Virus record (IMG/VR): IMGVR_UViG_3300032007_000008
Length of the DNA: 64,000 nucleotides
DNA from: a virus
Taxonomy: Duplodnaviria > Heunggongvirae > Uroviricota > Caudoviricetes
Reading direction: 5' to 3' (one strand)
Position numbers and translations under genes: made by a program. Shown here piece by piece: positions 56,265 through 64,000 of the stretch (position 1 is its first letter; the number at the start of each line of letters is the position of its first letter). A model generated the notes under the pieces. The model had not been told where the DNA came from. It did not search any database and saw nothing but the letters and a program-made list of their open reading frames with translations.

Positions 56265-57122
56265 ATGGCTGAAATCGACAATTTCAAGATTATTCGAAAC
56301 CTTCTGGAGTTTAGGCTGAATACCGATAGGTATGTTCTTCATATTTTGCGTCGTCCGAAGGATTGCAAGAGCGAAGGTTTCGAAAACACACTTGGGAGTA
56401 ATGAAAAGCAGAGACTGCTCCGAACATACTATATCAATTCGGTAGACTACTTCGACAGTAAAGAGACTGCCGTGAAGGAACTTTGCCGTATAAACAATGC
56501 ACGTGCATACATCATACCACAGGTACGAAACAACAAGACGTGCATGACGAATCTTCTGAGGATTACAATCGACAATCTCGAAAATCCGACAATAAAGCCT
56601 GAGCATCTCATAAGGGCTGCATATTGTGGAAAGGGTTCCACGACAGGTATCGACAAAGACCGCAAACGTTGGGTAGTTGACATAGATAGCGACAATATGC
56701 AGGGATTTAGCGTAAGTTCCATTCGAATGGCAATCTATGATAGCTTGGCAAAATCGAAAAGAGGAGATGCGGCAGTTTACGAACTTCCGACCAAAAACGG
56801 AATGCATTTCATAACACAGCCGTTTGACGTTAAATACGCAAGCAGCAAGTGTTTTATGCTGTTCAGCGATACAAAAAGCGGAATTGACCGTGAATTGGCT
56901 GCTGATTTTCTGAAAGAACACAAATGGAATGACGATATCATCAGTTCAATTCCTGAAAATCCATTCGAAATAGAAGGATTTTTCATAAATTTGCTTAAGA
57001 AGAATTCGATACCTGTAAATACCTTGCTTGGACAATTCAGAGAACGATGCAAAAAGACTTTTACAGGATGGCTTCATAAAACAGGAATGACTCTTTTATA
57101 CACGACAAAGGAAAATACATGA
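56265..57122 (+). CDS. hypothetical protein, possible primase-polymerase fold
   Basis: WVVDID and PTKNGMH motifs. Confidence 0.45.
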   Translation: MAEIDNFKIIRNLLEFRLNTDRYVLHILRRPKDCKSEGFENTLGSNEKQRLLRTYYINSVDYFDSKETAVKELCRINNARAYIIPQVRNNKTCMTNLLRITIDNLENPTIKPEHLIRAAYCGKGSTTGIDKDRKRWVVDIDSDNMQGFSVSSIRMAIYDSLAKSKRGDAAVYELPTKNGMHFITQPFDVKYASSKCFMLFSDTKSGIDRELAADFLKEHKWNDDIISSIPENPFEIEGFFINLLKKNSIPVNTLLGQFRERCKKTFTGWLHKTGMTLLYTTKENT

Positions 57123-57856
57123 ACGAAAACACACAAAACGGAATGATGGCGAATCCCGCACAACCGCCTCCTCAGCAGGAAAAGCCTGTAGGATGGGAAG
57201 ACTCGACGATAAAGAAATTCGTAGAAAACGAATATGCTTTAATGGACAAGAAGTGGCAGGAGCAGTACGATAAGGAGACGGACGAGAAAAGGCGCGAATC
57301 GCTGAAGGCAAACAAGGAGTATGGAAAAGTTGTCCACGATTGCGTCACACAGCTTCTAAAGCTGATGTTCGAGCAGGGGCATTCAGAGCTTTCCGCAGGA
57401 TTCACTCTCGCCGAGTTTTCCCGTTTGTCCAAGTTCAAGCCGCTTTCTCCGCTAACAGGAGAAGACGACGAGTGGCAGGATGTATATGAAAATAATGGGA
57501 AGACCATTCAGCAGAACAAGAGATGTTTCAGCATTTTCCGTGAAAAGGGGGACAACTCCACCGCAGAAAATTCAGAGGGTGTCGCATTCTCCGATGATGA
57601 AGGAAAGACGTGGTACACGAACTCCCATTCGAGAGTGAAGGTTTCTTTCCCATATTCCGTGCCTGATGAAATAGCAAGGAAAATCATAACAAAGGAAGAG
57701 AAAGAGGCAATGGACAAAGCTGATGAAGAAGCATGGAATGCATTCATCAAGGAGCATCCTGAATATGTCGAAAAGCTTCGTGCGATGAGACAGGAGCGTC
57801 CAAATGTTGATAATGGCGAAATGCCAAAGGCGAGCGAGGGGGCTAATGCCAACTGA
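57119..57856 (+). CDS. conserved phage hypothetical protein
   Basis: QGHS...PLSPLTGEDDEW...QNKR. Confidence 0.55.
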   Translation: MNENTQNGMMANPAQPPPQQEKPVGWEDSTIKKFVENEYALMDKKWQEQYDKETDEKRRESLKANKEYGKVVHDCVTQLLKLMFEQGHSELSAGFTLAEFSRLSKFKPLSPLTGEDDEWQDVYENNGKTIQQNKRCFSIFREKGDNSTAENSEGVAFSDDEGKTWYTNSHSRVKVSFPYSVPDEIARKIITKEEKEAMDKADEEAWNAFIKEHPEYVEKLRAMRQERPNVDNGEMPKASEGANAN

Positions 57857-58136
57857 CATGTCGATAGGTCTTCGACCGTCGAAAAATCATCTTTTGGTAA
57901 AAAGAGTTTCTGTAGAGGAAACAGTGGGGGGAACGAATTTCGTTCTCCCCAAGGATTTCCATCAGAAACCGATGAAGTGCGTTGTCGTTGACATTGGCGA
58001 TGAGCATCTCGATACTGGGATGGAGTTAAAGGTTGGAGATACCATTCTGCTGCCGAAATATGGGAGCACGAAAGTTATAAAAGATAATGAAGAGTATCAT
58101 CTTTGCCATATAGATGATATAATTGGAATTTTATGA
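57846..58136 (+). CDS. groES: co-chaperonin GroES
   Basis: LRPSKNHLLVKR...GG..VLP...VVDIG...LKVGDTILLPKYG...DDIIGI. Confidence 0.88.
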   Translation: MPTDMSIGLRPSKNHLLVKRVSVEETVGGTNFVLPKDFHQKPMKCVVVDIGDEHLDTGMELKVGDTILLPKYGSTKVIKDNEEYHLCHIDDIIGIL

Positions 58137-58744
58137 AAAACGACGAAAAGAACAAGCCATCCAATACAGTCTCCAACGAGCAGGCGGCAGAGCCAATAGA
58201 AAAGAACTGCACAAACTATGTAGACGGGAATAGCGTTTTTATTCTTGGAGCATTTGACGATACTATATCTAAGAACATCGTGCCAAACCTTGTAAAGATT
58301 ATAAATCAGCAAAAATCCCTAAAAAATGGAAAAATTGATTTTTATATCAATTCATATGGCGGGTATTGCTCTGAGCTGTACAGCATATTGTCTTTGGTCT
58401 CGCTTGCCAAATCAAACGGAATAAAGATAAACACGTTTAACATGGGTATTGCATATAGCTGTGCAAGCATACTTTCAGTAGTCGGAGATGAGAGAAAGAT
58501 GTTTAAATGCGCAAAGAATCTCATGCATTTGGGAGAAACCTTTTCTTCAAGCTCGACCTTTATGCAATTGGACAGAAATCACAAGAGGCAGAAAGACCAT
58601 TTCAACAACATAGTCTCAATGTATGCCGCGCACACTAAGCTTACTGAAAAGAAAATACGTGAGCTTATGTCTGATAATTGCTGCTATCTAAACTCAAACG
58701 AATGCTTGAAATTTGGACTTGTTGATGAAGTTTGCGATTGTTAA
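58133..58744 (+). CDS. clpP: ClpP-like protease
   Basis: FYINSYGG, GIAYSCAS, LMH, ECLKFGLVD. Confidence 0.8.
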   Translation: MKNDEKNKPSNTVSNEQAAEPIEKNCTNYVDGNSVFILGAFDDTISKNIVPNLVKIINQQKSLKNGKIDFYINSYGGYCSELYSILSLVSLAKSNGIKINTFNMGIAYSCASILSVVGDERKMFKCAKNLMHLGETFSSSSTFMQLDRNHKRQKDHFNNIVSMYAAHTKLTEKKIRELMSDNCCYLNSNECLKFGLVDEVCDC

Positions 58745-59078: not shown

Positions 59079-59154
59079 GGAGGTGTCGTATAGCCGGTCT
59101 GTACAGTGGACTGAAAATCCATCGGTGTTGGTTCGACCCCAACCGCCTCCACCA
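59079..59154 (+). tRNA. tRNA-Phe(GAA)
   Basis: Cloverleaf, loop CT-GAA-AA, encoded CCA. Confidence 0.9.
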
Positions 59155-59181
59155 AAAGAGAAAGAAACTCTATAAAACTTG

Positions 59182-59273
59182 TTGCGGCAAAATGCCAAGT
59201 GTGGTATAATGGTCGCCGTAGCTGAAAAAAAAAGGCGAAAGCCTTTAGCTCTTTGACAATTGAATGTAGATGA
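59182..59273 (+). promoter_or_regulatory. rrn-like promoter with GNRA hairpin and boxA leader (copy 1)
   Basis: TTGCGG-17-TATAAT, GC-rich discriminator, AAAGGC-gaaa-GCCTTT, TCTTTGACAATTGAATGTAGATGA. Confidence 0.75.
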
Positions 59274-59383
59274 CTAGGGTTTAACGACCCTATGGAGAAG
59301 AAACATGGGTTTCTTCCGTCCGAAGTCCACAATGATTCGGAACATTCTTTGTCGTTCGGTTGCGGTAACGCAACCGACGAAAT

Positions 59384-59470
59384 GGAGGGTTGTTCGAATG
59401 GTAAGGAGCCGGTCTTGAAAACCGGTGGATGTAAAAAGTCTTGGGGGTTCGAGTCCCTCACCCTCCGCCA
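59384..59470 (+). tRNA. tRNA-Ser(TGA)
   Basis: Long variable arm, CT-TGA-AA, GCCA. Confidence 0.9.
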
Positions 59471-59855
59471 TTGCATGTACGCCGATGAGGAGTAAAACTC
59501 AGTGCGCTTAATGTCAAACGATAGCTCAGTGACGAGAGTAGAGGTAACTCGTTCGGTCATTCACCATGATGGAAGGTTGGTTGGTGATGCGTCTTAGGAC
59601 GTAAGCCCATTCCCTTGCAGAGTTCAAGTCCTGCCAATGAGTGCGCACCCGAAATATTTTAGGGGATACATAGAACAGACGCGGAAAGGTCCGCGAAGCC
59701 TGTGCGAAATAAATAAGATATGCAGCAGGTCCCATTCGGAGGTCGGCATGCCAGACTCGTCAACTGCAATCCATAACCGCACTAGTGTGCTCCATACGTG
59801 AATCTGTCGGTAAACACATAAAATATAGACCGTCAAGCGAGTCTAGTTTCTTTTA

Positions 59856-59922
59856 AAGGCGCATACAGCAACAATATTTTATGCAATTGTTAGGGAACAG
59901 TCAAGCACAAAAACGCGCCTTG
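59856..59922 (+). ncRNA. ACAGCAA cassette A
   Basis: AAGGCGC-ATACAGCAA...GCGCCTT-G. Confidence 0.6.
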
Positions 59923-59927
59923 GTAAT

Positions 59928-60010
59928 GGGATTATGGCGGAATTGGCATACGCAGCAGTTTGAGGGACTGTCCCTTTTGGGTGAGAGTTCGAATCTCTCT
60001 AATCCCACCA
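59928..60010 (+). tRNA. tRNA-Leu(GAG)
   Basis: TT-GAG-GG loop, variable arm, ACCA. Confidence 0.88.
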
Positions 60011-60014
60011 CAGA

Positions 60015-60099
60015 GCGGAATTGATGGAATTGGTAGACTTGGCGTCTTCAGACGGCGTTGCCAAATGGCGTATTGGTTCGAATCCAATATTCCGCACCA
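60015..60099 (+). tRNA. tRNA-Leu(CAG)
   Basis: TT-CAG-AC loop, variable arm, ACCA. Confidence 0.85.
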
Positions 60100-60106
60100 C
60101 AAAGAT

Positions 60107-60183
60107 GCATCAATAGCTCAATCGGCCAGAGTACCTCCTTGCCATGGAGGATGTTACGGGTTCGAGTCCCGTTTGGTGCTCCA
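60107..60183 (+). tRNA. tRNA-Gly(GCC)
   Basis: TT-GCC-AT loop, TCCA. Confidence 0.9.
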
Positions 60184-60195
60184 CAATTTACGATT

Positions 60196-60308
60196 TAGAT
60201 GCGCACAGCGACTTTCATATCACGGTTTGTTTAGGTTCGACTCCTAAAGGCGATTCGGAGAAATCCGAGCGTGGAAGCGGTTCGATTGAGAACCGGCTCC
60301 GCATCTAG
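60196..60308 (+). ncRNA. ACAGC cassette B containing a T-arm
   Basis: TAGATGCG-CACAGCGA...TTTAGG-TTCGACT-CCTAAA...CGCATCTA-G. Confidence 0.6.
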
Positions 60309-60312
60309 CTTT

Positions 60313-60388
60313 GGGGACTTGGTAGAGCGGCTTCATATGCCTCACTGTCTATGAGGCGAGACGGGTTCAACCCCCGTAGTCCCCGCCA
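60313..60388 (+). tRNA. tRNA-Asp(GTC)
   Basis: CT-GTC-TA loop, GCCA. Confidence 0.9.
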
Positions 60389-60541
60389 TTCTAAACCGCA
60401 TTTGGCCAATGCGGAGCAAACGGCACCCCTGAGAGGTGGGCATCCGTGGAGAAATGCGGCTGGCGGTCTCATGAACCGCTTGTCTTCTCCTTGCCGGGGT
60501 AAGAGTCCTCACAATCTTCTCTGTTTCTTGTGATACTGAAT

Positions 60542-60618
60542 ACGGACTTGGTATATGTGGATTTGTGCCTCGGTCTCCAAAACCGAAGGAGCTTGTTCGA
60601 CTCAAGCAGTCCGTGCCA
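60542..60618 (+). tRNA. tRNA-Trp(CCA)
   Basis: CT-CCA-AA loop, GCCA. Confidence 0.88.
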
Positions 60619-60626
60619 ATTCAAAT

Positions 60627-60700
60627 GGGCCGGTGATGTAATGGTAGCATGCGACCTTTGCAAGGTTGATGTCGGGGTTCGAATCCCCACGTGTCCACCA
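60627..60700 (+). tRNA. tRNA-Ala(TGC)
   Basis: G3:U70, TT-TGC-AA, irregular acceptor stem. Confidence 0.85.
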
Positions 60701-60908
60701 ACTTAGGCTAAAGCCTTGCTGTCATGTGCTTCTGCATGACAGCTCAATAGTAAATCAGGAGCTGGTGGAGGACTCCATGCTCAACCTCGCAATCGCGAGG
60801 AACCCGCGTTTCGCTCTTCCTTCGGGTTTAAATGAGGCAAAGAGCTGGTAGCAAACGTTGTCCTAAAGTTCGGAGGCCGTTGTAAGATTCGGCGAGAAAG
60901 GACGATAT

Positions 60909-61003
60909 TTTAGCCGTTGTCGGGGTTCGAATCCCATCGATGCCGAAAGCGAAAGCAGGCTCGTAATCATGCAGTGCGCATGAAGGAGGTATCAACGGCT
61001 AAA
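60909..61003 (+). ncRNA. T-arm-containing structured RNA closed by an 11-bp stem
   Basis: TTTAGCCGTTG/CAACGGCTAAA enclosing GGG-TTCGAAT-CCC and TCATGC/GCATGA. Confidence 0.5.
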
Positions 61004-61130
61004 GATTTTTTCTGCGGTCGAGTTCTGATATTCAAATATCATTCAAAAACACTCGCCAAAAAACGTCGGAAGCGAGACTAGGAGTTAGCGTCGAAATACG
61101 TGCGTCGGACGACAAGCTTCACTTTGAAAT

Positions 61131-61204
61131 GGGCCGCTAGTTCAGTGGTAGAACATCCCGTTCGCAACGGGAAAACCTGAGTTCGATTCTCAGCGTGTCC
61201 ACCA
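61131..61204 (+). tRNA. tRNA-Ala(CGC)
   Basis: G3:U70, TT-CGC-AA. Confidence 0.87.
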
Positions 61205-61212
61205 TTCTCATT

Positions 61213-61295
61213 GCTTCGGTAATTCCATAACGGGGAATGTCAATCCCACCCAGTAATGGAGGATTGAATCAGTTCGTAACTGTATCGGGGCTCCA
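61213..61295 (+). ncRNA. atypical tRNA-like RNA with extended anticodon arm
   Basis: GCTTCGG/TCGGGGC-TCCA acceptor, D stem ATTC/GAAT, 7-bp TCAATCC/GGATTGA with a 14-nt loop. Confidence 0.6.
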
Positions 61296-61302
61296 ATTTA
61301 AT

Positions 61303-61376
61303 GGGCCGATAGTTCAGTGGTAGAATGCTTCAATGGCATTGAAGAGATGGCGGTTCGATTCCGCCCGTGTCCACCA
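61303..61376 (+). tRNA. tRNA-Ala(GGC)
   Basis: G3:U70, AT-GGC-AT. Confidence 0.87.
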
Positions 61377-61431
61377 TTCGGAGATGGCTGTGTTCTCAAC
61401 AGTCAACTGCGGCATCTCCGAAAAATTTTTC
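61377..61431 (+). terminator. hairpin ending the first RNA operon
   Basis: TTCGGAGATG...CATCTCCGAA then an A/T run. Confidence 0.55.
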
Positions 61432-61441
61432 AAAAAACTGG

Positions 61442-61521
61442 TTGCGAAAAACGCAGTCATGTGCTATAATAGGCGGCGTTTCCGAAAGGAAGCTGGTTCT
61501 TTGACAATTGAATGTAGATGA
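61442..61521 (+). promoter_or_regulatory. rrn-like promoter with GNRA hairpin and boxA leader (copy 2)
   Basis: TTGCGA-17-TATAAT, AGGCGGCG, TTCC-gaaa-GGAA, same 24-nt TCTTTGACAATTGAATGTAGATGA. Confidence 0.75.
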
Positions 61522-61525
61522 AGAC

Positions 61526-61591
61526 GGGTGTGTAGCTCAAGAAGAGCGTTCGTCTGAAAGATGTGGGTGTGAAATCCCACTACACTCACCA
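61526..61591 (+). ncRNA. 66-nt mini tRNA with collapsed anticodon arm
   Basis: GGGTGTG/TACACTC-ACCA, D stem GCTC/GAGC, TTC-gtct-GAA, T stem GTGGG/CCCAC. Confidence 0.65.
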
Positions 61592-61666
61592 TGCGGAGTA
61601 TAGCAACGGTAGCTAATCAGCCTCATAAGCTGAAGGTCGGTGGTTCGACTCCACCCTCCGCTACCA
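61592..61666 (+). tRNA. tRNA-Met(CAT), initiator-like 1:72 mismatch
   Basis: CT-CAT-AA; U1:U72; lacks the three consecutive G-C anticodon-stem pairs. Confidence 0.85.
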
Positions 61667-61741
61667 AGGAGGCCACAGCGCGGCATTAAGTTGCCGTTTC
61701 ATTAGTTTGCGTTATCATGCTCGCCGTAAGCTCTGTTAGAT

Positions 61742-61819
61742 AGGAGCGTAGCTCAGCCCGGTGAGAGCAGCATCCTTATAAGTTGTTGGTCGGTGGTTCA
61801 AATCCACTCGCTCCTACCA
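61742..61819 (+). tRNA. tRNA-Ile(TAT)
   Basis: CT-TAT-AA loop, ACCA. Confidence 0.85.
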
Positions 61820-61822
61820 AAT

Positions 61823-61898
61823 AGTCCTGTAAGCTAATTGGATAAACTTCAAGGCTACGAACCTTGTATTCCGGGTTCAAGTCCCGGTGGGACTGCCA
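61823..61898 (+). tRNA. tRNA-Arg(ACG)
   Basis: CT-ACG-AA loop, GCCA. Confidence 0.9.
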
Positions 61899-61905
61899 TT
61901 GCCGA

Positions 61906-62027
61906 AAGACGCACACAGCAATTCAACTTCTAAAATTCACTGTTAATGAAAAGGCGTGGGTTCGAATCCCGCAACCGCACGGCAAAGCGGTTTAGCTTAG
62001 TGGTAGAGCTTTAAAGAAGGCGTCTAG
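61906..62027 (+). ncRNA. ACAGCAA cassette C with circularly permuted tRNA(GTT)
   Basis: AGACGC/GCGTCT enclosing anticodon arm, T arm, loop-closed acceptor stem and D arm in that order. Confidence 0.7.
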
Positions 62028-62263
62028 TTATTTAATTTCATGCAACGGCTGCTGTATCGATGATTTGCAGAATTCAAAGTTCTGTCAACAGACAATGACG
62101 CAATAATCGATATGGTTTTAACAGCGAAAGCCTTTGCAGACTTGCAACCGCCGAGGCAGATGGAGGCGGCGGACGATGGAGGGGTGTCGCTCACCCCGTT
62201 ATCCGTATGAACCATTGGGAGTGCTGCGTCCCGCTCAGCCCGTCGAAGACGGACAACGCAGAT

Positions 62264-62379
62264 AAGTCACATGCAGCAATTAAAATTCTCCACCATTTGG
62301 GGAAATAGCATAATTGGTTAGTGCGTCCGTCGAAAGGCGGAAGGTTCTGGTTCGAATCCAGATTTAAATTGGTGACTTG
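62264..62379 (+). ncRNA. GCAGCAA cassette D with permuted, anticodon-less tRNA
   Basis: AAGTCAC/GTGACTT enclosing TTCTCC-ACCA-ttt-GGGGAA, D arm, GAAA-capped stem, T arm. Confidence 0.7.
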
Positions 62380-62391
62380 TTTTCAATCTTT

Positions 62392-62457
62392 AAGACTCAT
62401 ACAGCAACAAGCTATAAGCAATTGACAGTTAATCAATCACGCTAATACCGAGTCTTG
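62392..62457 (+). ncRNA. ACAGCAA cassette E with isolated anticodon-like hairpin
   Basis: AAGACTC/GAGTCTT enclosing ATTGA-CAGTTAA-TCAAT. Confidence 0.65.
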
Positions 62458-62461
62458 CCTT

Positions 62462-62537
62462 GCCTTGATAACACAGTGGTTTAGTGTGTCAGCCTTCCAA
62501 GCTGAAGACACCGGTTCGAATCCGGTTCAGGGCTCCA
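62462..62537 (+). tRNA. tRNA-Gly(TCC)
   Basis: CT-TCC-AA, TCCA. Confidence 0.9.
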
Positions 62538-62543
62538 TGATGA

Positions 62544-62631
62544 TGCTAGGTAGACCTGTAGGGAGCAGGGGCAGACTGTAAATCTGTTGTGTTAACGCAC
62601 CCTGTAAGTTCGACTCTTACCCTAGCAACCA
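62544..62631 (+). tRNA. tRNA-Tyr(GTA)
   Basis: CT-GTA-AA, variable arm, ACCA. Confidence 0.88.
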
Positions 62632-62805
62632 GAGAGGTGGCAGAAAAGCAGATGCAGTGTCTTTCGAGGACTGGCCATTGTCGATAATAGACGGTTTGTA
62701 AAAACGTTCCTTAAGGTTTCCGTCTGTGGTCAAGGAGTTAGCTACTCATGGAATTACCACTAATCGCATATGGCATTGGAGGTTCAAACCCTCCCCTCTC
62801 AACCA
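62632..62805 (+). ncRNA. tRNA shell with about 100-nt structured insert in the anticodon arm
   Basis: GAGAGG/CCTCTC-A-ACCA, D arm, AGTG/CACT, T arm GGAGG-TTCAAAC-CCTCC. Confidence 0.65.
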
Positions 62806-62806
62806 T

Positions 62807-62890
62807 TGGCATGTAGCGCGTATACGGTGATAGCTGCTCTTAAGTACATAGAGCCAACAAATGCGGGTTCGACTCCTGCCATGCCTACCA
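62807..62890 (+). ncRNA. atypical tRNA with 9-nt anticodon loop
   Basis: GGCATG/CATGCC, GCTCT-TAAGTACAT-AGAGC, canonical T arm, ACCA. Confidence 0.6.
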
Positions 62891-63101
62891 TCCTCGGTGA
62901 TAACCACCTTGGCAAAAACCCATACGAACGTGGTATGGTCGAGCTGTGAGAACAACGACACAGAGAGCAGTGGAACTTATATCCATGTAGCGACAGTTCT
63001 TCGTGACTGCCAGACGCGATATGAAATCCCTTGAATGGGTCTGGTTTCAGTGTGAGTGAGGCAGGCTACGCTGTGTAAAAGTCACTGCCAAGATTTTCAA
63101 T

Positions 63102-63357
63102 GGTGGATAGTTCAAATGTAACAGAATAAAGGGCATGTTCCGAGGGAACGAGGAGCAAGTAGTGTCACAAAAGGTGTGTGCAGTTCTTGACAATCTTCAC
63201 GCAGCGAGCCAGGTGACCCTGGGGTTGGCGAGTTTGGATTGGGATTGGAATGCAAGTTCTGTCCCAGTTGACCATAGGCTCTCGCCTTGAATTCGTTCGT
63301 ACTAAAAAATCCCCAAAGCCCCGCAAGACGGAGGGTGAAAATCCCTCGCCACCGCCA
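63102..63357 (+). ncRNA. tRNA shell with about 180-nt insert in the anticodon arm
   Basis: GGTGG/CCACC-GCCA, D stem GTTC/GAAT, GGGC/GCCC, T arm GAGGG-TGAAAAT-CCCTC. Confidence 0.6.
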
Positions 63358-63364
63358 ATTTCAT

Positions 63365-63452
63365 CACGCCGTGCGCCGAATGGATAAGGCATCGGCCTTC
63401 TAAGCCGACGGGAGTTTTCCCATTGCAGGTTCGAGTCCTGTCGGCGTGGCCA
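63365..63452 (+). tRNA. tRNA-Arg(TCT) with long variable arm
   Basis: CT-TCT-AA; GGGA-gttt-TCCC variable stem; GCCA. Confidence 0.85.
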
Positions 63453-63505
63453 TGGAACTCTGATAAATCGTAACGGTAATAATGACTCTTTCGGAATATG
63501 AAATT

Positions 63506-63591
63506 GGAGAAGTGCGATAATGGTATTCGAGCGGCTTGCTAAGCCGTGGGGTTAAGAGCCTCTCCCGGTTCGAGTCCGGGCTTCTCCGCCA
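63506..63591 (+). tRNA. tRNA-Ser(GCT)
   Basis: TT-GCT-AA, variable arm, GCCA. Confidence 0.9.
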
Positions 63592-63595
63592 CGAA

Positions 63596-63683
63596 GCTCC
63601 TGTGGCGAAACTGGCAGTACGCATGGGGCTTAAACCCCCAGCCCGGTATCGGGGTAGGGGTTCGAATCCCCTCTGGAGCACCA
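63596..63683 (+). tRNA. tRNA-Leu(TAA)
   Basis: CT-TAA-AC, variable arm, ACCA. Confidence 0.9.
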
Positions 63684-63687
63684 AGAT

Positions 63688-63763
63688 GTTCCGATAAGCT
63701 AACAGGACAAACTTCTGCACTCCTAATGCGGGTTTGACGGTTCGAGTCCGTCTCGGAATACCA
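63688..63763 (+). tRNA. tRNA-Arg(CCT)
   Basis: CT-CCT-AA, ACCA. Confidence 0.9.
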
Positions 63764-63768
63764 ACTAT

Positions 63769-63850
63769 GCTAGAGTGGTGGAACGGCATACACAGTGGCT
63801 TCAAATACCACGGCTTCGGCATATGGGTTCAAATCCCATCTCTAGTACCA
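63769..63850 (+). tRNA. tRNA-Leu(CAA)
   Basis: TT-CAA-AT, variable arm, ACCA. Confidence 0.88.
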
Positions 63851-63854
63851 AACT

Positions 63855-64000
63855 AAGGCAGATACAGCAAACATTGTTTTGTAAATAAAAAATGCTAAAC
63901 AATACCCAGACTGCGGGTTAAAGCCGTCAAACGCATCAATCAAGCATGGCGTTGTTATGCTGACAGTTTCGATTGCTACGTACTTCTGTAAAAAGCGAAA
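63855..64000 (+). ncRNA. ACAGCAA cassette F, truncated by the window end
   Basis: AAGGCAG-ATACAGCAA; closing strand not within the window. Confidence 0.45.

What the first reader, a model, noticed from the sequence alone, without database searches (positions are those of the whole stretch)
59856..64000. Repeated ACAGCAA RNA cassettes that carry tRNA-derived cargo: candidate new ncRNA system
Seen: six elements interspersed with tRNAs share one grammar: a 6-8 bp closing stem starting (A/T)AG, immediately followed by unpaired A(T/C)ACAGCAA or a close variant, variable cargo, then the complementary strand ending CT(A/T)G. Stems differ in sequence yet stay paired: AAGGCGC/GCGCCTT (59856), TAGATGCG/CGCATCTA (60196), AGACGC/GCGTCT (61907), AAGTCAC/GTGACTT (62264), AAGACTC/GAGTCTT (62392), AAGGCAG/beyond window (63855). 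Cargo is tRNA parts: whole permuted tRNAs, a T arm, or a lone anticodon hairpin. Known: bacterial Y RNAs (YrlA) join a Ro60-binding stem to a permuted tRNA-like domain, but I do not recognise ACAGCAA as their motif. Inference: a constant protein-binding handle plus variable tRNA-mimic baits, i.e. a modular RNP that decoys or recruits tRNA-targeting enzymes such as anticodon nucleases.
Basis: partly seen in the sequence, partly recalled or inferred. Interest (0 to 1): 0.9.

Follow-up and report, generated by a model that had tools for sequence, protein, structure and literature searches.

The report
Phage tRNA-mimic RNAs with Ro60-like partner
A giant phage hides a dozen small RNA genes among its tRNA genes, all closed by the same stem-plus-CAGCAA "handle" and often shaped like pieces of tRNA. 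The same handle follows a Ro60-shaped protein (DUF2828) through hundreds of unrelated phages, so these look like an undescribed kind of Y RNA, probably used in the fight over tRNAs between phage and host.

Summary
The array of this 291-kb phage holds 12 copies in all, all on the + strand.

- **Stem and handle.** A 7-bp stem (W-A-G-N4 / N4'-C-U-W, then G) is followed by 3 nt and unpaired CAGCAA. The stem covaries: 7 of 7 pairs, 0 of 500 shuffles.
- **Cargo.** It varies: permuted tRNA-like domains (partial YrlA or tRNA matches), single tRNA arms, or small hairpins.
- **Known families.** Rfam 15 has no family for the handle. It lacks the GNCGAA motif of YrlA, and the Dictyostelium Class I model finds nothing.
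- **Protein partner.** The phage has no TROVE Ro60 and no RtcB. It does encode a DUF2828 protein whose predicted fold matches only Ro60 structures over its full length.
- **Association, both directions.** 74 of 80 DUF2828 loci in other phages carry such cassettes on the gene's strand, mostly within 3 kb. 26 of 31 cassette-bearing viral records encode DUF2828, against 2 of 20 controls.
- **Published link.** Bas63 gp130, a published anti-defence protein, is a DUF2828 member with four cassettes beside it.

Most likely these are Y-RNA-like partners of DUF2828. A decoy or repair role is inferred, not shown.

This scan met the same handle earlier on at least eight other genomes.

The parts
59856..59921 (+). 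Cassette el1 (66 nt): stem AAGGCGC/GCGCCUU, linker AUA, CAGCAA, and short hairpin cargo with no tRNA arms. It ends 6 nt before tRNA-Leu.
   Evidence: scored by model R1 at 69.7 bits, but it is a training sequence; spacing
60196..60307 (+). Cassette el2 (112 nt): stem UAGAUGC(G), variant motif CAGCGA. The cargo is a T-arm-like hairpin (UAGG-UUCGACU-CCUA), a GAAA-capped hairpin and a third hairpin. It lies 12 nt after tRNA-Gly and 5 nt before tRNA-Asp.
61906..62025 (+). Cassette el3 (about 119 nt): stem (A)AGACGC/GCGUCU(A), linker ACA, CAGCAA. The cargo is a circularly permuted full tRNA-like domain: an anticodon arm with loop CUGUUAA, a T arm, an acceptor stem closed by a loop, and a D arm.
   Evidence: YrlA RF02553 partial match at 61949-62012, 30.9 bits, model positions 24-84
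62264..62378 (+). Cassette el4 (115 nt): stem AAGUCAC/GUGACUU, linker AUG, CAGCAA. The cargo is a tRNA-like domain whose acceptor stem is closed by an ACCA-containing loop, followed by a D arm, a GAAA-capped 'anticodon' stem and a T arm.
   Evidence: Rfam tRNA match at 62303-62365, 37.7 bits, model positions 5-66
62392..62456 (+). Cassette el5 (65 nt): stem AAGACUC/GAGUCUU, linker AUA, CAGCAA. The cargo is a 5-bp hairpin with the 7-nt loop CAGUUAA. It ends 5 nt before tRNA-Gly.
   Evidence: no Rfam match at all at E<=10
63855..64000 (+). Cassette el6 (154 nt, cut by the window end): stem AAGGCAG, linker AUA, CAGCAA. Its 3' strand CUGCCUU lies at 64002-64008 in the parent genome. The cargo shares a 3' module (GUUUCGAUUGC...GUAAAAAGC) with cassette el11. 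It starts 4 nt after tRNA-Leu.
59202..59215 (+). Extended -10 promoter-like site (TGGTATAATGGTCG) that heads the first part of the array. It belongs to the same promoter class that flanks the DUF2828 operon.
   Evidence: 35 genome copies of TG[CG]TATAAT[AG]G[GT]CG, including genome positions 70991 and 68979 on the minus strand beside the DUF2828 gene
61462..61475 (+). Second promoter-like site of the same class (TGCTATAATAGGCG), inside the array and upstream of el3 to el6.
59079..64000 (+). The tRNA gene array that hosts the cassettes. ARAGORN finds 19 tRNAs in the window; the array continues to window-equivalent about 71830 and holds 38 tRNAs and a tmRNA in the genome.

Best explanation
The elements are genes for small non-coding RNAs of a widespread family that Rfam does not hold.

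**Anatomy.** Each RNA is clamped by a 7-bp helix that joins its 5' and 3' ends (5' W-A-G-R-C-R-C, 3' G-Y-G-Y-C-U-W, then a conserved G). The helix is followed on the 5' side by N-W-A and an invariant, apparently single-stranded CAGCAA. This 'handle' is constant. Between its two halves sits interchangeable cargo:
- permuted or capped tRNA-like domains;
- single tRNA arms;
- anticodon-stem-loop look-alikes;
- other hairpins.

**Expression (inferred).** In this phage the RNAs are made from the tRNA-array transcripts, which carry their own promoters. They lie 0-13 nt from neighbouring tRNAs in 9 of 12 cases, so the tRNA-processing enzymes probably release them.

**Partner (inferred).** The most likely partner is the phage's DUF2828 protein at genome 69065-70645, outside the window. 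It has the HEAT-repeat ring plus vWA fold of Ro60. By analogy with Ro60 and Y RNA, the protein would bind the handle, and the cargo would present tRNA shapes to tRNA-directed proteins.

**Function (inferred).** The likely role is in the phage-host conflict over tRNAs. The cargo may decoy or occupy host tRNA-cleaving defences. Alternatively the RNP may organise repair together with the RNA ligase and phosphoesterase encoded beside the DUF2828 gene.

**Shown here:** the family, its covarying stem, the fold of the protein, and the two-way genomic association.

**Not shown:** direct binding, discrete RNA ends, and the decoy or repair role.
For: **RNA family**
- There are 12 copies here, all on the + strand.
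- A covariance model built from only four local copies finds 69 matches at E<=0.01 in 53 loci of other phages, all 69 on the DUF2828 gene's strand.
- On those matches all 7 stem pairs show compensatory changes and 100% of cells are paired. There are 95 double changes against 22 in shuffles (0 of 500 shuffles reach the observed value). Slid controls pair at only 32-55%.
- Positions my grammar did not force are also conserved. The outer pair is Watson-Crick in 154 of 166 copies (A-U 108, G-C 27, U-A 16). The base after the stem is G in 94-97%. Linker position 3 is A in 91%.
- Among closures with a single mismatch, G-U outnumbers A-C by 20 to 3.5. This shows selection on an RNA of the + strand.

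**Protein**
- The gene carries PF11443 and PF25043 and gives only weak vWA_Ro60 hits.
- The AF2 model has pLDDT 80 and pTM 0.78.
- The 12 best distinct Foldseek PDB matches (ranks 1-13) are all Ro60 aligned over full length (phiLo, Xenopus, human, Deinococcus; E 1e-7 to 2e-5, TM 0.38-0.55). Below them are only vWA domains at E>0.02.
- The MIDAS residues D310, S312, S314, T383 and D415 are invariant in 32 homologues.

**Association**
- 74 of 80 IMG/VR DUF2828 loci have grammar hits: 247 against 26 in shuffles, with 230 on the gene's strand.
- Of 214 distinct 5' half-motifs on the gene's strand, 175 lie within 3 kb upstream of the gene and 11 just after it. Only 6 lie on the other strand.
- In the reverse direction, 26 of 31 stem-closed matches to AAGACNCNTACAGCAA sit in records that encode DUF2828. 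The 5 exceptions are contigs estimated 14-80% complete. Among non-closed matches 2 of 20 do. Fisher p = 2e-7.

**Cultivated phages**
- Cassettes lie beside the gene in MiniLon, HY02, Bas63, LP-124 and NCTC12673, all tested except Bas63 being TROVE-negative.
- The tRNA arrays of DUF2828-negative PM135 and Serratia 4S, and of TROVE-type Atuin, have none.

**Function hints**
- bas63_0130 is a DUF2828 gene. It is the g130 that counters the Ppl defence system (bioRxiv 10.1101/2024.10.10.617714).
- In this phage the gene's neighbours are a metallophosphoesterase, an AAA ATPase and an RNA ligase.
- 25 of 124 hairpins in short cassettes have a Y-U-NNN-R-N loop, against 1 in shuffled cargo. CUUUUAA occurs 13 times.
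- The array and the DUF2828 operon share one promoter class.
Against: - No binding or expression data exist for any member of the family.
- In this phage the protein gene lies about 185 kb from the cassettes, so local synteny gives no support here. The link rests on other phages.
- The association could be indirect, with both features belonging to a larger tRNA or RNA-repair module.
- Five cassette-bearing contigs lack DUF2828, although all five are incomplete.
- Munch shows no cassette within 5 kb of its gene.
- In the window itself only el3 has a canonical anticodon loop. el5's loop lacks U33, and el1 and el6 have no recognisable tRNA part.
- Ppl, the defence that Bas63 gp130 counters, is proposed by those authors to degrade DNA, not tRNA.
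- The 80 IMG/VR loci are partly redundant, since many come from one sample. I counted distinct sequences where I could.
Confidence: 0.62

Rival explanations
1. The handle is real but is recognised by something other than DUF2828. Candidates are a host protein, the neighbouring RNA ligase or AAA ATPase, or an RNase. On this reading DUF2828 merely travels in the same tRNA/RNA-repair gene module.
For: - The gene and the cassettes are 185 kb apart in this phage.
- tRNAs occur in 69 of the 80 DUF2828 loci.
- RNA ligase or RtcB genes lie near the gene in this phage, in Munch and in LP-124.
- No binding test was possible with these tools.
Against: - The cassettes sit directly against the DUF2828 gene, on its strand, in very different phages: hosts include mycobacteria, Listeria, Campylobacter and enterobacteria.
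- No other neighbour is constant. RtcB is found in 0 of 80 loci and an Rnl-type ligase in 8 of 80.
- The protein's fold is that of the one protein family known to bind stem-closed small RNAs with tRNA-like modules.
Confidence: 0.18
2. The cassettes are punctuation of the tRNA operon. They would be processing or stabilising hairpins that guide RNases or insulate neighbouring tRNAs, with no life of their own as RNPs.
For: - Nine of the 12 cassettes lie 0-13 nt from a tRNA, the same spacing as between tRNAs.
- They share promoters with the tRNAs.
Against: - In other phages 24 of 70 cassette clusters have no tRNA within 1.5 kb.
- Only 29 of 230 cassettes abut a tRNA.
- tRNA arrays of DUF2828-negative phages lack them.
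- An invariant single-stranded CAGCAA and elaborate tRNA-like cargo are not needed for punctuation.
Confidence: 0.08
3. The tRNA-like members (el3, el4 and the YrlA-like copies past the window) are permuted tRNA genes that mature into working tRNAs. The handle would be their processing signal.
For: - el3 contains every arm of a tRNA with a GUU anticodon loop.
- M. smegmatis YrlA is cut by RNase P and receives CCA (PMC4201824).
Against: - The acceptor ends are closed by loops.
- el4 has GAAA where the anticodon should be.
- The same handle carries cargo with no tRNA parts (el1, el5, el10, el12).
- The phage already encodes a standard tRNA-Asn(GUU).
- No cargo is a close copy of any of the phage's own tRNAs.
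Confidence: 0.05
4. They are DNA-level repeats: miniature inverted-repeat elements or recombination sites that spread within tRNA arrays.
For: They have short terminal inverted repeats and occur in many copies in one region.
Against: - The strand bias is strict: 214 against 6.
- G-U is tolerated but A-C is not.
- The stems differ between copies through compensatory changes.
- No two cargos here are alike enough to be recent copies.
Confidence: 0.02

Closest known systems
YrlA/YrlB Y RNAs with Rsr (Ro60, TROVE) in bacteria and some mycobacteriophages (Rfam RF02553; Chen et al. 2014, PMC4201824)
   Same: - Both are small RNAs whose ends pair in a stem next to a short conserved single-stranded motif.
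- Both carry a module that mimics tRNA in permuted order: T arm, closed acceptor stem, D arm.
- Both are encoded beside, and on the strand of, a ring-shaped HEAT-plus-vWA protein, often with RNA-repair genes nearby.
- The cargo of three local cassettes matches the tRNA-like core of the YrlA model (31-36 bits).
   Different: - The motif is CAGCAA, not GNCGAAN0-1G.
- All matches are far below the gathering score of 69, and mostly cover only model positions 24-84.
- The partner is DUF2828, which does not match Pfam TROVE.
- The cargo is much more varied: normal-order and permuted tRNA-like domains, lone arms, anticodon-loop hairpins.
- The copies number 2-12 per phage.
- Atuin, a phage with a true TROVE protein, has a YrlA-like RNA but no CAGCAA cassettes.
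Thermus phage phiLo Ro60 with Yrl1/Yrl2 (PMC12135203; PDB 9KOP, 9L5Y)
   Same: - It is a phage-encoded Ro60-fold protein with small stem-closed RNAs encoded just upstream.
- 9KOP is the best structural match of the DUF2828 model (E 1e-7).
   Different: - The phiLo protein is a TROVE member and its RNAs use a CGAA motif in an internal bulge.
- Sequence identity to the DUF2828 protein is only about 14%.
Bas63 gp130, a Ro60-like counter of the Ppl defence system (PhageMaP preprint, 10.1101/2024.10.10.617714)
   Same: - bas63_0130 is a DUF2828 gene: 95.5% nucleotide identity to the HY02 gene, which matches this phage's protein over 95% of its length.
- It lies directly upstream of a tRNA array that holds four stem-plus-CAGCAA cassettes.
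- The authors guessed that some 'tRNA genes' might be Y RNAs.
   Different: - The preprint neither identifies the RNAs nor describes the handle.
- In the present phage the gene and the cassettes are 185 kb apart.
Class I RNAs of dictyostelid amoebae (Rfam RF01414; Kjellin et al. 2021, PMC7919456)
   Same: As that paper describes them, Class I RNAs:
- start with AAG;
- have a 6-bp terminal stem whose sequence varies by compensatory changes;
- have an 11-nt unpaired motif right after the 5' strand, with invariant C6, C9, A10 and A11. This fits N-N-N-W-A-C-A-G-C-A-A;
- have a variable remainder of about 60 nt in all, and conserved 3' end letters.
   Different: - RF01414 finds nothing in this genome at E<=10, nor in el5.
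- The 3' end is CUGU there and CUUG here.
- The known protein partner there is an RRM protein.
- Those are eukaryotic nuclear genes with their own promoter element.
- The likeness is a lead from earlier notes of this scan, checked here only against the paper's wording.
Phage tRNA arrays and tRNA variants that evade or neutralise host anticodon nucleases (T4 Pnkp/Rnl1 against PrrC; T5 tRNAs against PARIS). This entry rests on my own knowledge and was not checked here.
   Same: - The genomic setting is the same.
- tRNA-shaped RNAs are used in the conflict with tRNA-cleaving defences.
- RNA ligase and end-healing genes lie nearby.
   Different: - Those are working tRNAs or repair enzymes.
- These are clamped, non-chargeable mimics with a shared handle.

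Membership tests
YrlA (Rfam RF02553) | A match to the covariance model at or above the gathering score of 69 bits | tested here: not met
   The best matches are 30.9 bits (el3), 36.2 and 35.4 bits (copies past the window end). Two of the three cover only model positions 24-84.
YrlA (Rfam RF02553) | GNCGAAN0-1G motif near the 5' end, the presumed Ro60 contact | tested here: not met
   None of the 12 cassettes has it at the 5' end. The only two occurrences lie at positions 66-68, inside cargo hairpins. The motif definition comes from PMC4201824.
YrlA (Rfam RF02553) | A tRNA-like domain: T arm, loop-closed acceptor stem, D arm | tested here: met
   Met for el3 and for the copies at window-equivalent 64063 and 65073 (alignment). 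By eye it is also met for the copy at 65896. It is not met for el1, el5, el10 and el12.
YrlA (Rfam RF02553) | Encoded within about 4 kb of a TROVE-domain Ro60 gene, on the same strand | tested here: not met
   No PF05731 match anywhere in the 291-kb genome.
Stem-plus-CAGCAA handle RNAs that accompany DUF2828 (not in Rfam; defined in this scan) | A 6-7-bp terminal helix (W)AG-N4 / N4'-CU(W), followed by G | tested here: met
   Present in all 12 copies. The same signature is seen in 149 distinct cassettes from other phages. Covariation was tested.
Stem-plus-CAGCAA handle RNAs that accompany DUF2828 (not in Rfam; defined in this scan) | A 3-nt linker, then CAGCAA, directly after the 5' strand | tested here: met
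   Nine of the 12 copies are exact. The variants are CAGCGA (el2), CAGCAU (64063) and CUGCAA with a 4-nt linker (65073).
Stem-plus-CAGCAA handle RNAs that accompany DUF2828 (not in Rfam; defined in this scan) | A DUF2828 gene in the same genome | tested here: met
   One gene at genome 69065-70645 on the minus strand: PF11443 at 129 bits and PF25043 at 141 bits.
Stem-plus-CAGCAA handle RNAs that accompany DUF2828 (not in Rfam; defined in this scan) | Cassettes adjacent to the DUF2828 gene and on its strand | tested here: not met
   Here all the cassettes lie in the tRNA array, about 185 kb from the gene. No cassette lies beside the gene. A KVP40-like Vibrio phage likewise has plausible cassettes in its array, a few kb from the gene.
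Dictyostelium Class I RNA (Rfam RF01414) | A match to the covariance model (gathering score 41.5 bits) | tested here: not met
   No match at E<=10 in the whole genome (88 candidates scored), nor in el5 alone.
Dictyostelium Class I RNA (Rfam RF01414) | AAG start, a short covarying terminal stem, and an 11-nt unpaired motif with C6, C9, A10 and A11 | tested here: inconclusive
   The features as worded in PMC7919456 fit the handle. T3 and the CUGU end do not fit.
Ro60 / TROVE protein family (for the proposed partner) | A Pfam TROVE (PF05731) match | tested here: not met
   There are only weak vWA_Ro60 (E 0.03) and VWA_2 hits, and no PDB sequence match.
Ro60 / TROVE protein family (for the proposed partner) | HEAT-repeat ring plus C-terminal vWA domain with a MIDAS motif | tested here: met
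   The Foldseek hits at ranks 1-13 (12 distinct entries) are all Ro60, aligned over full length. D-x-S-x-S, T and D are invariant in 32 homologues.

The most novel reading that the evidence does not exclude
The handle is a universal docking tag for a Ro60-shaped phage protein, and the cargo slot is a freely exchangeable display site for tRNA parts. On this reading each phage carries a small library of RNP-mounted tRNA mimics: whole permuted tRNAs, and anticodon arms of Lys, Asn, Ser, Tyr and others. The mimics would be tuned to bait, block or sense the particular tRNA-cleaving or tRNA-sensing defences of its hosts, and to hand damaged tRNAs to the adjacent ligase and phosphoesterase. The likeness to Dictyostelium Class I RNAs would then mean that the same RNA-protein pairing exists in eukaryotes.
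Probability: 0.25. Interest if true: 0.9.

Novelty: new variant of a known kind. Interest (0 to 1): 0.78.

Why it matters
- **Scale of the gap.** DUF2828 genes occur in 694 of 50,697 cultivated phage records (Felix O1-like, KVP40-like, Listeria, Staphylococcus, Campylobacter, Enterococcus, mycobacterial and jumbo phages) and in thousands of metagenomic proteins. Yet neither the protein nor its RNAs have a described function, and Rfam has no model for the RNAs.
- **What the family adds.** If the pairing holds, it is a second, much larger branch of Ro60-Y RNA biology.
- **Annotation.** It explains many unannotated gaps, and some spurious small ORFs, in phage tRNA arrays.
- **A testable system.** It gives concrete RNA partners to test for a protein already shown genetically to counter a bacterial defence system (Bas63 gp130).
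- **An open question.** It makes testable why phages carry tRNA look-alikes beside their tRNAs.

Tried and rejected
- **TROVE and RtcB in this genome:** both absent.
- **Rfam at relaxed thresholds** on the region and on single elements: only tRNA and partial YrlA matches on the cargo, nothing on the handle.
- **RF01414 on the whole genome:** nothing.
- **blastn of the array against cultivated phages:** only single tRNA matches.
- **Relatives through the adjacent ClpP-like gene:** none found in IMG/VR.
- **Exact-pattern scan for the 3' module shared by el6 and el11:** no match.
- **Covariance model R1:** it was built with cargo columns and recognises only short-cargo copies. It misses the long local ones such as el2, el3, el4 and el6, so copy counts rest on my own grammar.
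- **A misclassification, corrected.** My first closure rule for the reverse test (7 bp) wrongly classed six true cassettes with an unpaired outer A as 'open'. I went back to the 6-bp rule fixed earlier and applied it to all 80 loci.
- **Literature:** the full-text search for 'acagcaa' returned only primers. The supplement tables of Chen et al. 2014 are not held. So I cannot say whether any DUF2828-type mycobacteriophage RNA was among their 22 phage YrlA candidates.
- **tblastn for RtcB in the 80 loci:** 0 hits with a single Listeria-phage query, which has low sensitivity.
- **The grammar hit at window 6644:** rejected as chance, because it lies inside an ORF and lacks the trailing G.

Full report
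**Setting.** The window is positions 195039-259038 of a 291,479-bp viral record judged complete. From window 59079 onward it holds a large tRNA gene array. ARAGORN finds 19 tRNAs in the window, and 38 tRNAs plus a tmRNA in the genome, reaching window-equivalent about 71830. Upstream lie genes for a Tad3-like protein, GroES and a ClpP-like protease.

**The observation.** The predicted 3' strand of the sixth, CTGCCTT followed by GG, lies at 64002-64008 of the parent genome. Six further copies lie beyond the window, giving 12 in all, every one on the + strand.

The heptamer alone is not significant: 15 occurrences against 9.1 expected. The full grammar is. AG-N4, 3 nt, CAGC[AG][AT], then the complement of N4 plus CT within 15-230 nt, gives 17 hits in the genome, 11 of them inside the 12.4-kb array. 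The hit at window 6644 lies inside an open reading frame and lacks the trailing G, so I take it as chance. A scan for further clamps of this type without the motif found none that convinced me.

Nine of the 12 cassettes lie 0-13 nt from a tRNA, which is tRNA-like spacing. Two promoter-like sites of one class, TG[CG]TATAAT[AG]G[GT]CG, head the in-window parts of the array.

**Cargo.**
- el3 is a complete tRNA-like domain in permuted order. It matches the tRNA-like core of the YrlA model (30.9 bits, model positions 24-84).
- Two copies past the window end match the same model (36.2 and 35.4 bits).
- el4 matches the tRNA model (37.7 bits). Its acceptor end is closed by a loop and a GAAA tetraloop replaces the anticodon loop.
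- el2 has a T-arm-like hairpin.
- el1, el5 and two later copies are about 65 nt long with simple hairpins.
- el6 shares a 3' module with the copy at 71268.
- No cargo is a recent copy of one of the phage's own tRNAs, and no two cargos are alike.

So 'tRNA-derived cargo' holds for about half of the copies.

**What it is not.**
- Rfam 15 has nothing for the handle.
- None of the 12 copies has the GNCGAAN0-1G motif that defines the Ro60-binding end of YrlA.
- The phage has no TROVE protein and no RtcB.
- The Dictyostelium Class I model finds nothing at E<=10.

**The lead and my tests of it.** Earlier notes of this scan report the same handle in at least eight other genomes and tie it to DUF2828. 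I tested this here.

*The protein.* The phage encodes one DUF2828 protein at genome 69065-70645 on the minus strand (526 aa). The family is very large: more than 5,800 proteins at E<=1e-10 among the candidates scored. An AlphaFold2 model built on 32 homologues (pLDDT 80, pTM 0.78) has as its 12 best distinct PDB matches (ranks 1-13) only Ro60 structures aligned over full length (E 1e-7 to 2e-5). Below them come isolated vWA domains at E>0.02. The MIDAS residues are invariant.

*From protein to RNA.* In 80 IMG/VR loci fetched through DUF2828 alone, my grammar gives 247 hits against 26 in shuffles, in 74 of 80 loci, with 230 on the gene's strand. I then used only the 5' half of the grammar, so that the stem was not presupposed. 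It gives 214 distinct sites on the gene's strand against 6 on the other. Of these, 175 lie within 3 kb upstream and 11 just downstream, and 166 are closed by a complementary 3' strand.

Positions the grammar does not force are also conserved:
- the outer pair is Watson-Crick in 154 of 166, in three pair types;
- the next base is G in 94-97%;
- the third linker base is A in 91%.

Single G-U mismatches outnumber A-C by 20 to 3.5, which marks an RNA of that strand.

A covariance model built from four local copies finds 69 matches at E<=0.01 in 53 such loci, all on the gene's strand. All seven pairs covary, 100% of cells are paired, and no shuffle of 500 reaches the observed counts. That alignment was fitted to the model.

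*From RNA to protein.* A scan of IMG/VR for AAGACNCNTACAGCAA returned 80 loci. By the grammar fixed beforehand, 31 are stem-closed. Of these, 26 lie in records that encode DUF2828, and the five that do not are contigs estimated 14-80% complete. Of 20 non-closed matches tested over the whole record, 2 encode it (Fisher p = 2e-7).

*Cultivated phages.* DUF2828 is found in 694 records.
- Cassettes lie directly beside the gene in MiniLon (three, with a GGAC-type stem; one has YrlA-like cargo at 37.7 bits), HY02, Bas63, Listeria phage LP-124 and Campylobacter phage NCTC12673.
- Those tested among them are TROVE-negative.
- The tRNA arrays of DUF2828-negative PM135 and Serratia 4S have none.
- Atuin, which has a true TROVE protein in its array, has a YrlA-like RNA but no CAGCAA cassette.
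- Cassettes do not need tRNAs. 24 of 70 clusters have no tRNA within 1.5 kb, and only 29 of 230 cassettes abut one.

**Function.** Three indirect lines point to the conflict over tRNAs.
1. bas63_0130 is a DUF2828 gene. It is the g130 that a preprint shows to counter the Ppl defence. The authors noted its Ro60-like fold and guessed at Y RNAs among the tRNAs, but did not identify them.
2. In this phage the gene sits between a metallophosphoesterase-like gene and an AAA ATPase followed by an RNA ligase. Ligase genes also lie near it in Munch and LP-124.
3. Among 109 short cassettes of other phages, 25 of 124 predicted hairpins have the canonical anticodon-loop shape, against 1 in shuffled cargo. 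The loop of tRNA-Lys(UUU) is the commonest.

The DUF2828 operon and the array also share one promoter class.

By analogy with Ro60 and Y RNA (PMC4201824; PMC12135203), I infer that the protein binds the handle and the cargo presents tRNA shapes to tRNA-directed proteins. Whether the RNP decoys nucleases or organises repair remains open.

**Novelty.** The kind is known: a Ro60-fold protein with stem-closed small RNAs that mimic tRNA. The variant is not described in Rfam 15 or in the papers I could search. It has a different protein family, a different handle, a modular cargo slot, and multi-copy arrays inside tRNA clusters.

Two cautions apply. I could not read the supplement of Chen et al. 2014. 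And the scan itself has met this family before on other DNA.

Noticed in passing
L002:494-832 (window-equivalent 64456-64794): The phage encodes a tmRNA inside the tRNA array (Rfam tmRNA 106 bits; ARAGORN tag peptide GNDYRMAA).
   Followed up: no
window 59202, 61462; genome-wide: A promoter-like motif, TG[CG]TATAAT[AG]G[GT]CG, occurs 35 times in the genome. 23 sites sit in a dense minus-strand cluster at genome 3-29 kb and 6 on the plus strand at 29-40 kb. Two flank the DUF2828 operon and four lie in or just after the tRNA array. A conserved leader, CTTTGACA(A/T)TT, follows the array copies.
   Followed up: partly
window 57119-58744: Directly upstream of the array lie a Tad3-like gene (type I Thoeris inhibitor family, 82 bits), a GroES homologue and a ClpP-like protease.
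   Followed up: no
window 62632-63364, 60701-61131, 59471-59855, 62026-62263: Long stretches inside the array have no tRNA, no cassette and no convincing + strand ORF. They may hold further structured RNAs.
   Followed up: no
window 61303-61373, 61526-61588, 62807-62887: Rfam finds tRNA-like sequences that ARAGORN does not call (47.5, 35.8 and 22.9 bits).
   Followed up: no
L211:585-7739 (genome 65084-72238, minus strand): The DUF2828 neighbourhood in this phage, in order: a metallophosphoesterase-like gene, a promoter, an 80-aa Lys/Cys-rich ORF, DUF2828, a promoter, an AAA ATPase, an RNA ligase (PF09414 plus PHA02142 OB fold), and a 423-aa unknown. The AAA ATPase beside a vWA protein recalls MoxR-vWA pairs.
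   Followed up: partly
L089:3462-4013 (Listeria phage LP-124): A near-threshold ROOL RNA match (87.4 bits against a gathering score of 99.1) lies between the tRNA array and the three DUF2828 cassettes.
   Followed up: no
L206:4876-5088 (Bas63) and L087:7713-8396 (HY02): Cassettes in Felix O1-like phages lie in unannotated gaps between tRNAs. In Bas63 they overlap two small 'hypothetical protein' CDSs annotated on the opposite strand (bas63_0137 and 0138), which are probably mis-calls.
   Followed up: partly
L210:7141-9300 (Arthrobacter phage Atuin): A TROVE-type Ro protein is encoded inside a tRNA array. It has a YrlA-like partial match downstream (31.7 bits) and no CAGCAA cassette. This looks like a parallel system to the DUF2828 one.
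   Followed up: partly
window 63855-64000 and L002:7306-7474: Cassettes el6 and el11 share a 3' cargo module, GTTTCGATTGC...CTTC-N-GTAAAAAGC, just before the clamp. No exact match was found in IMG/VR.
   Followed up: partly
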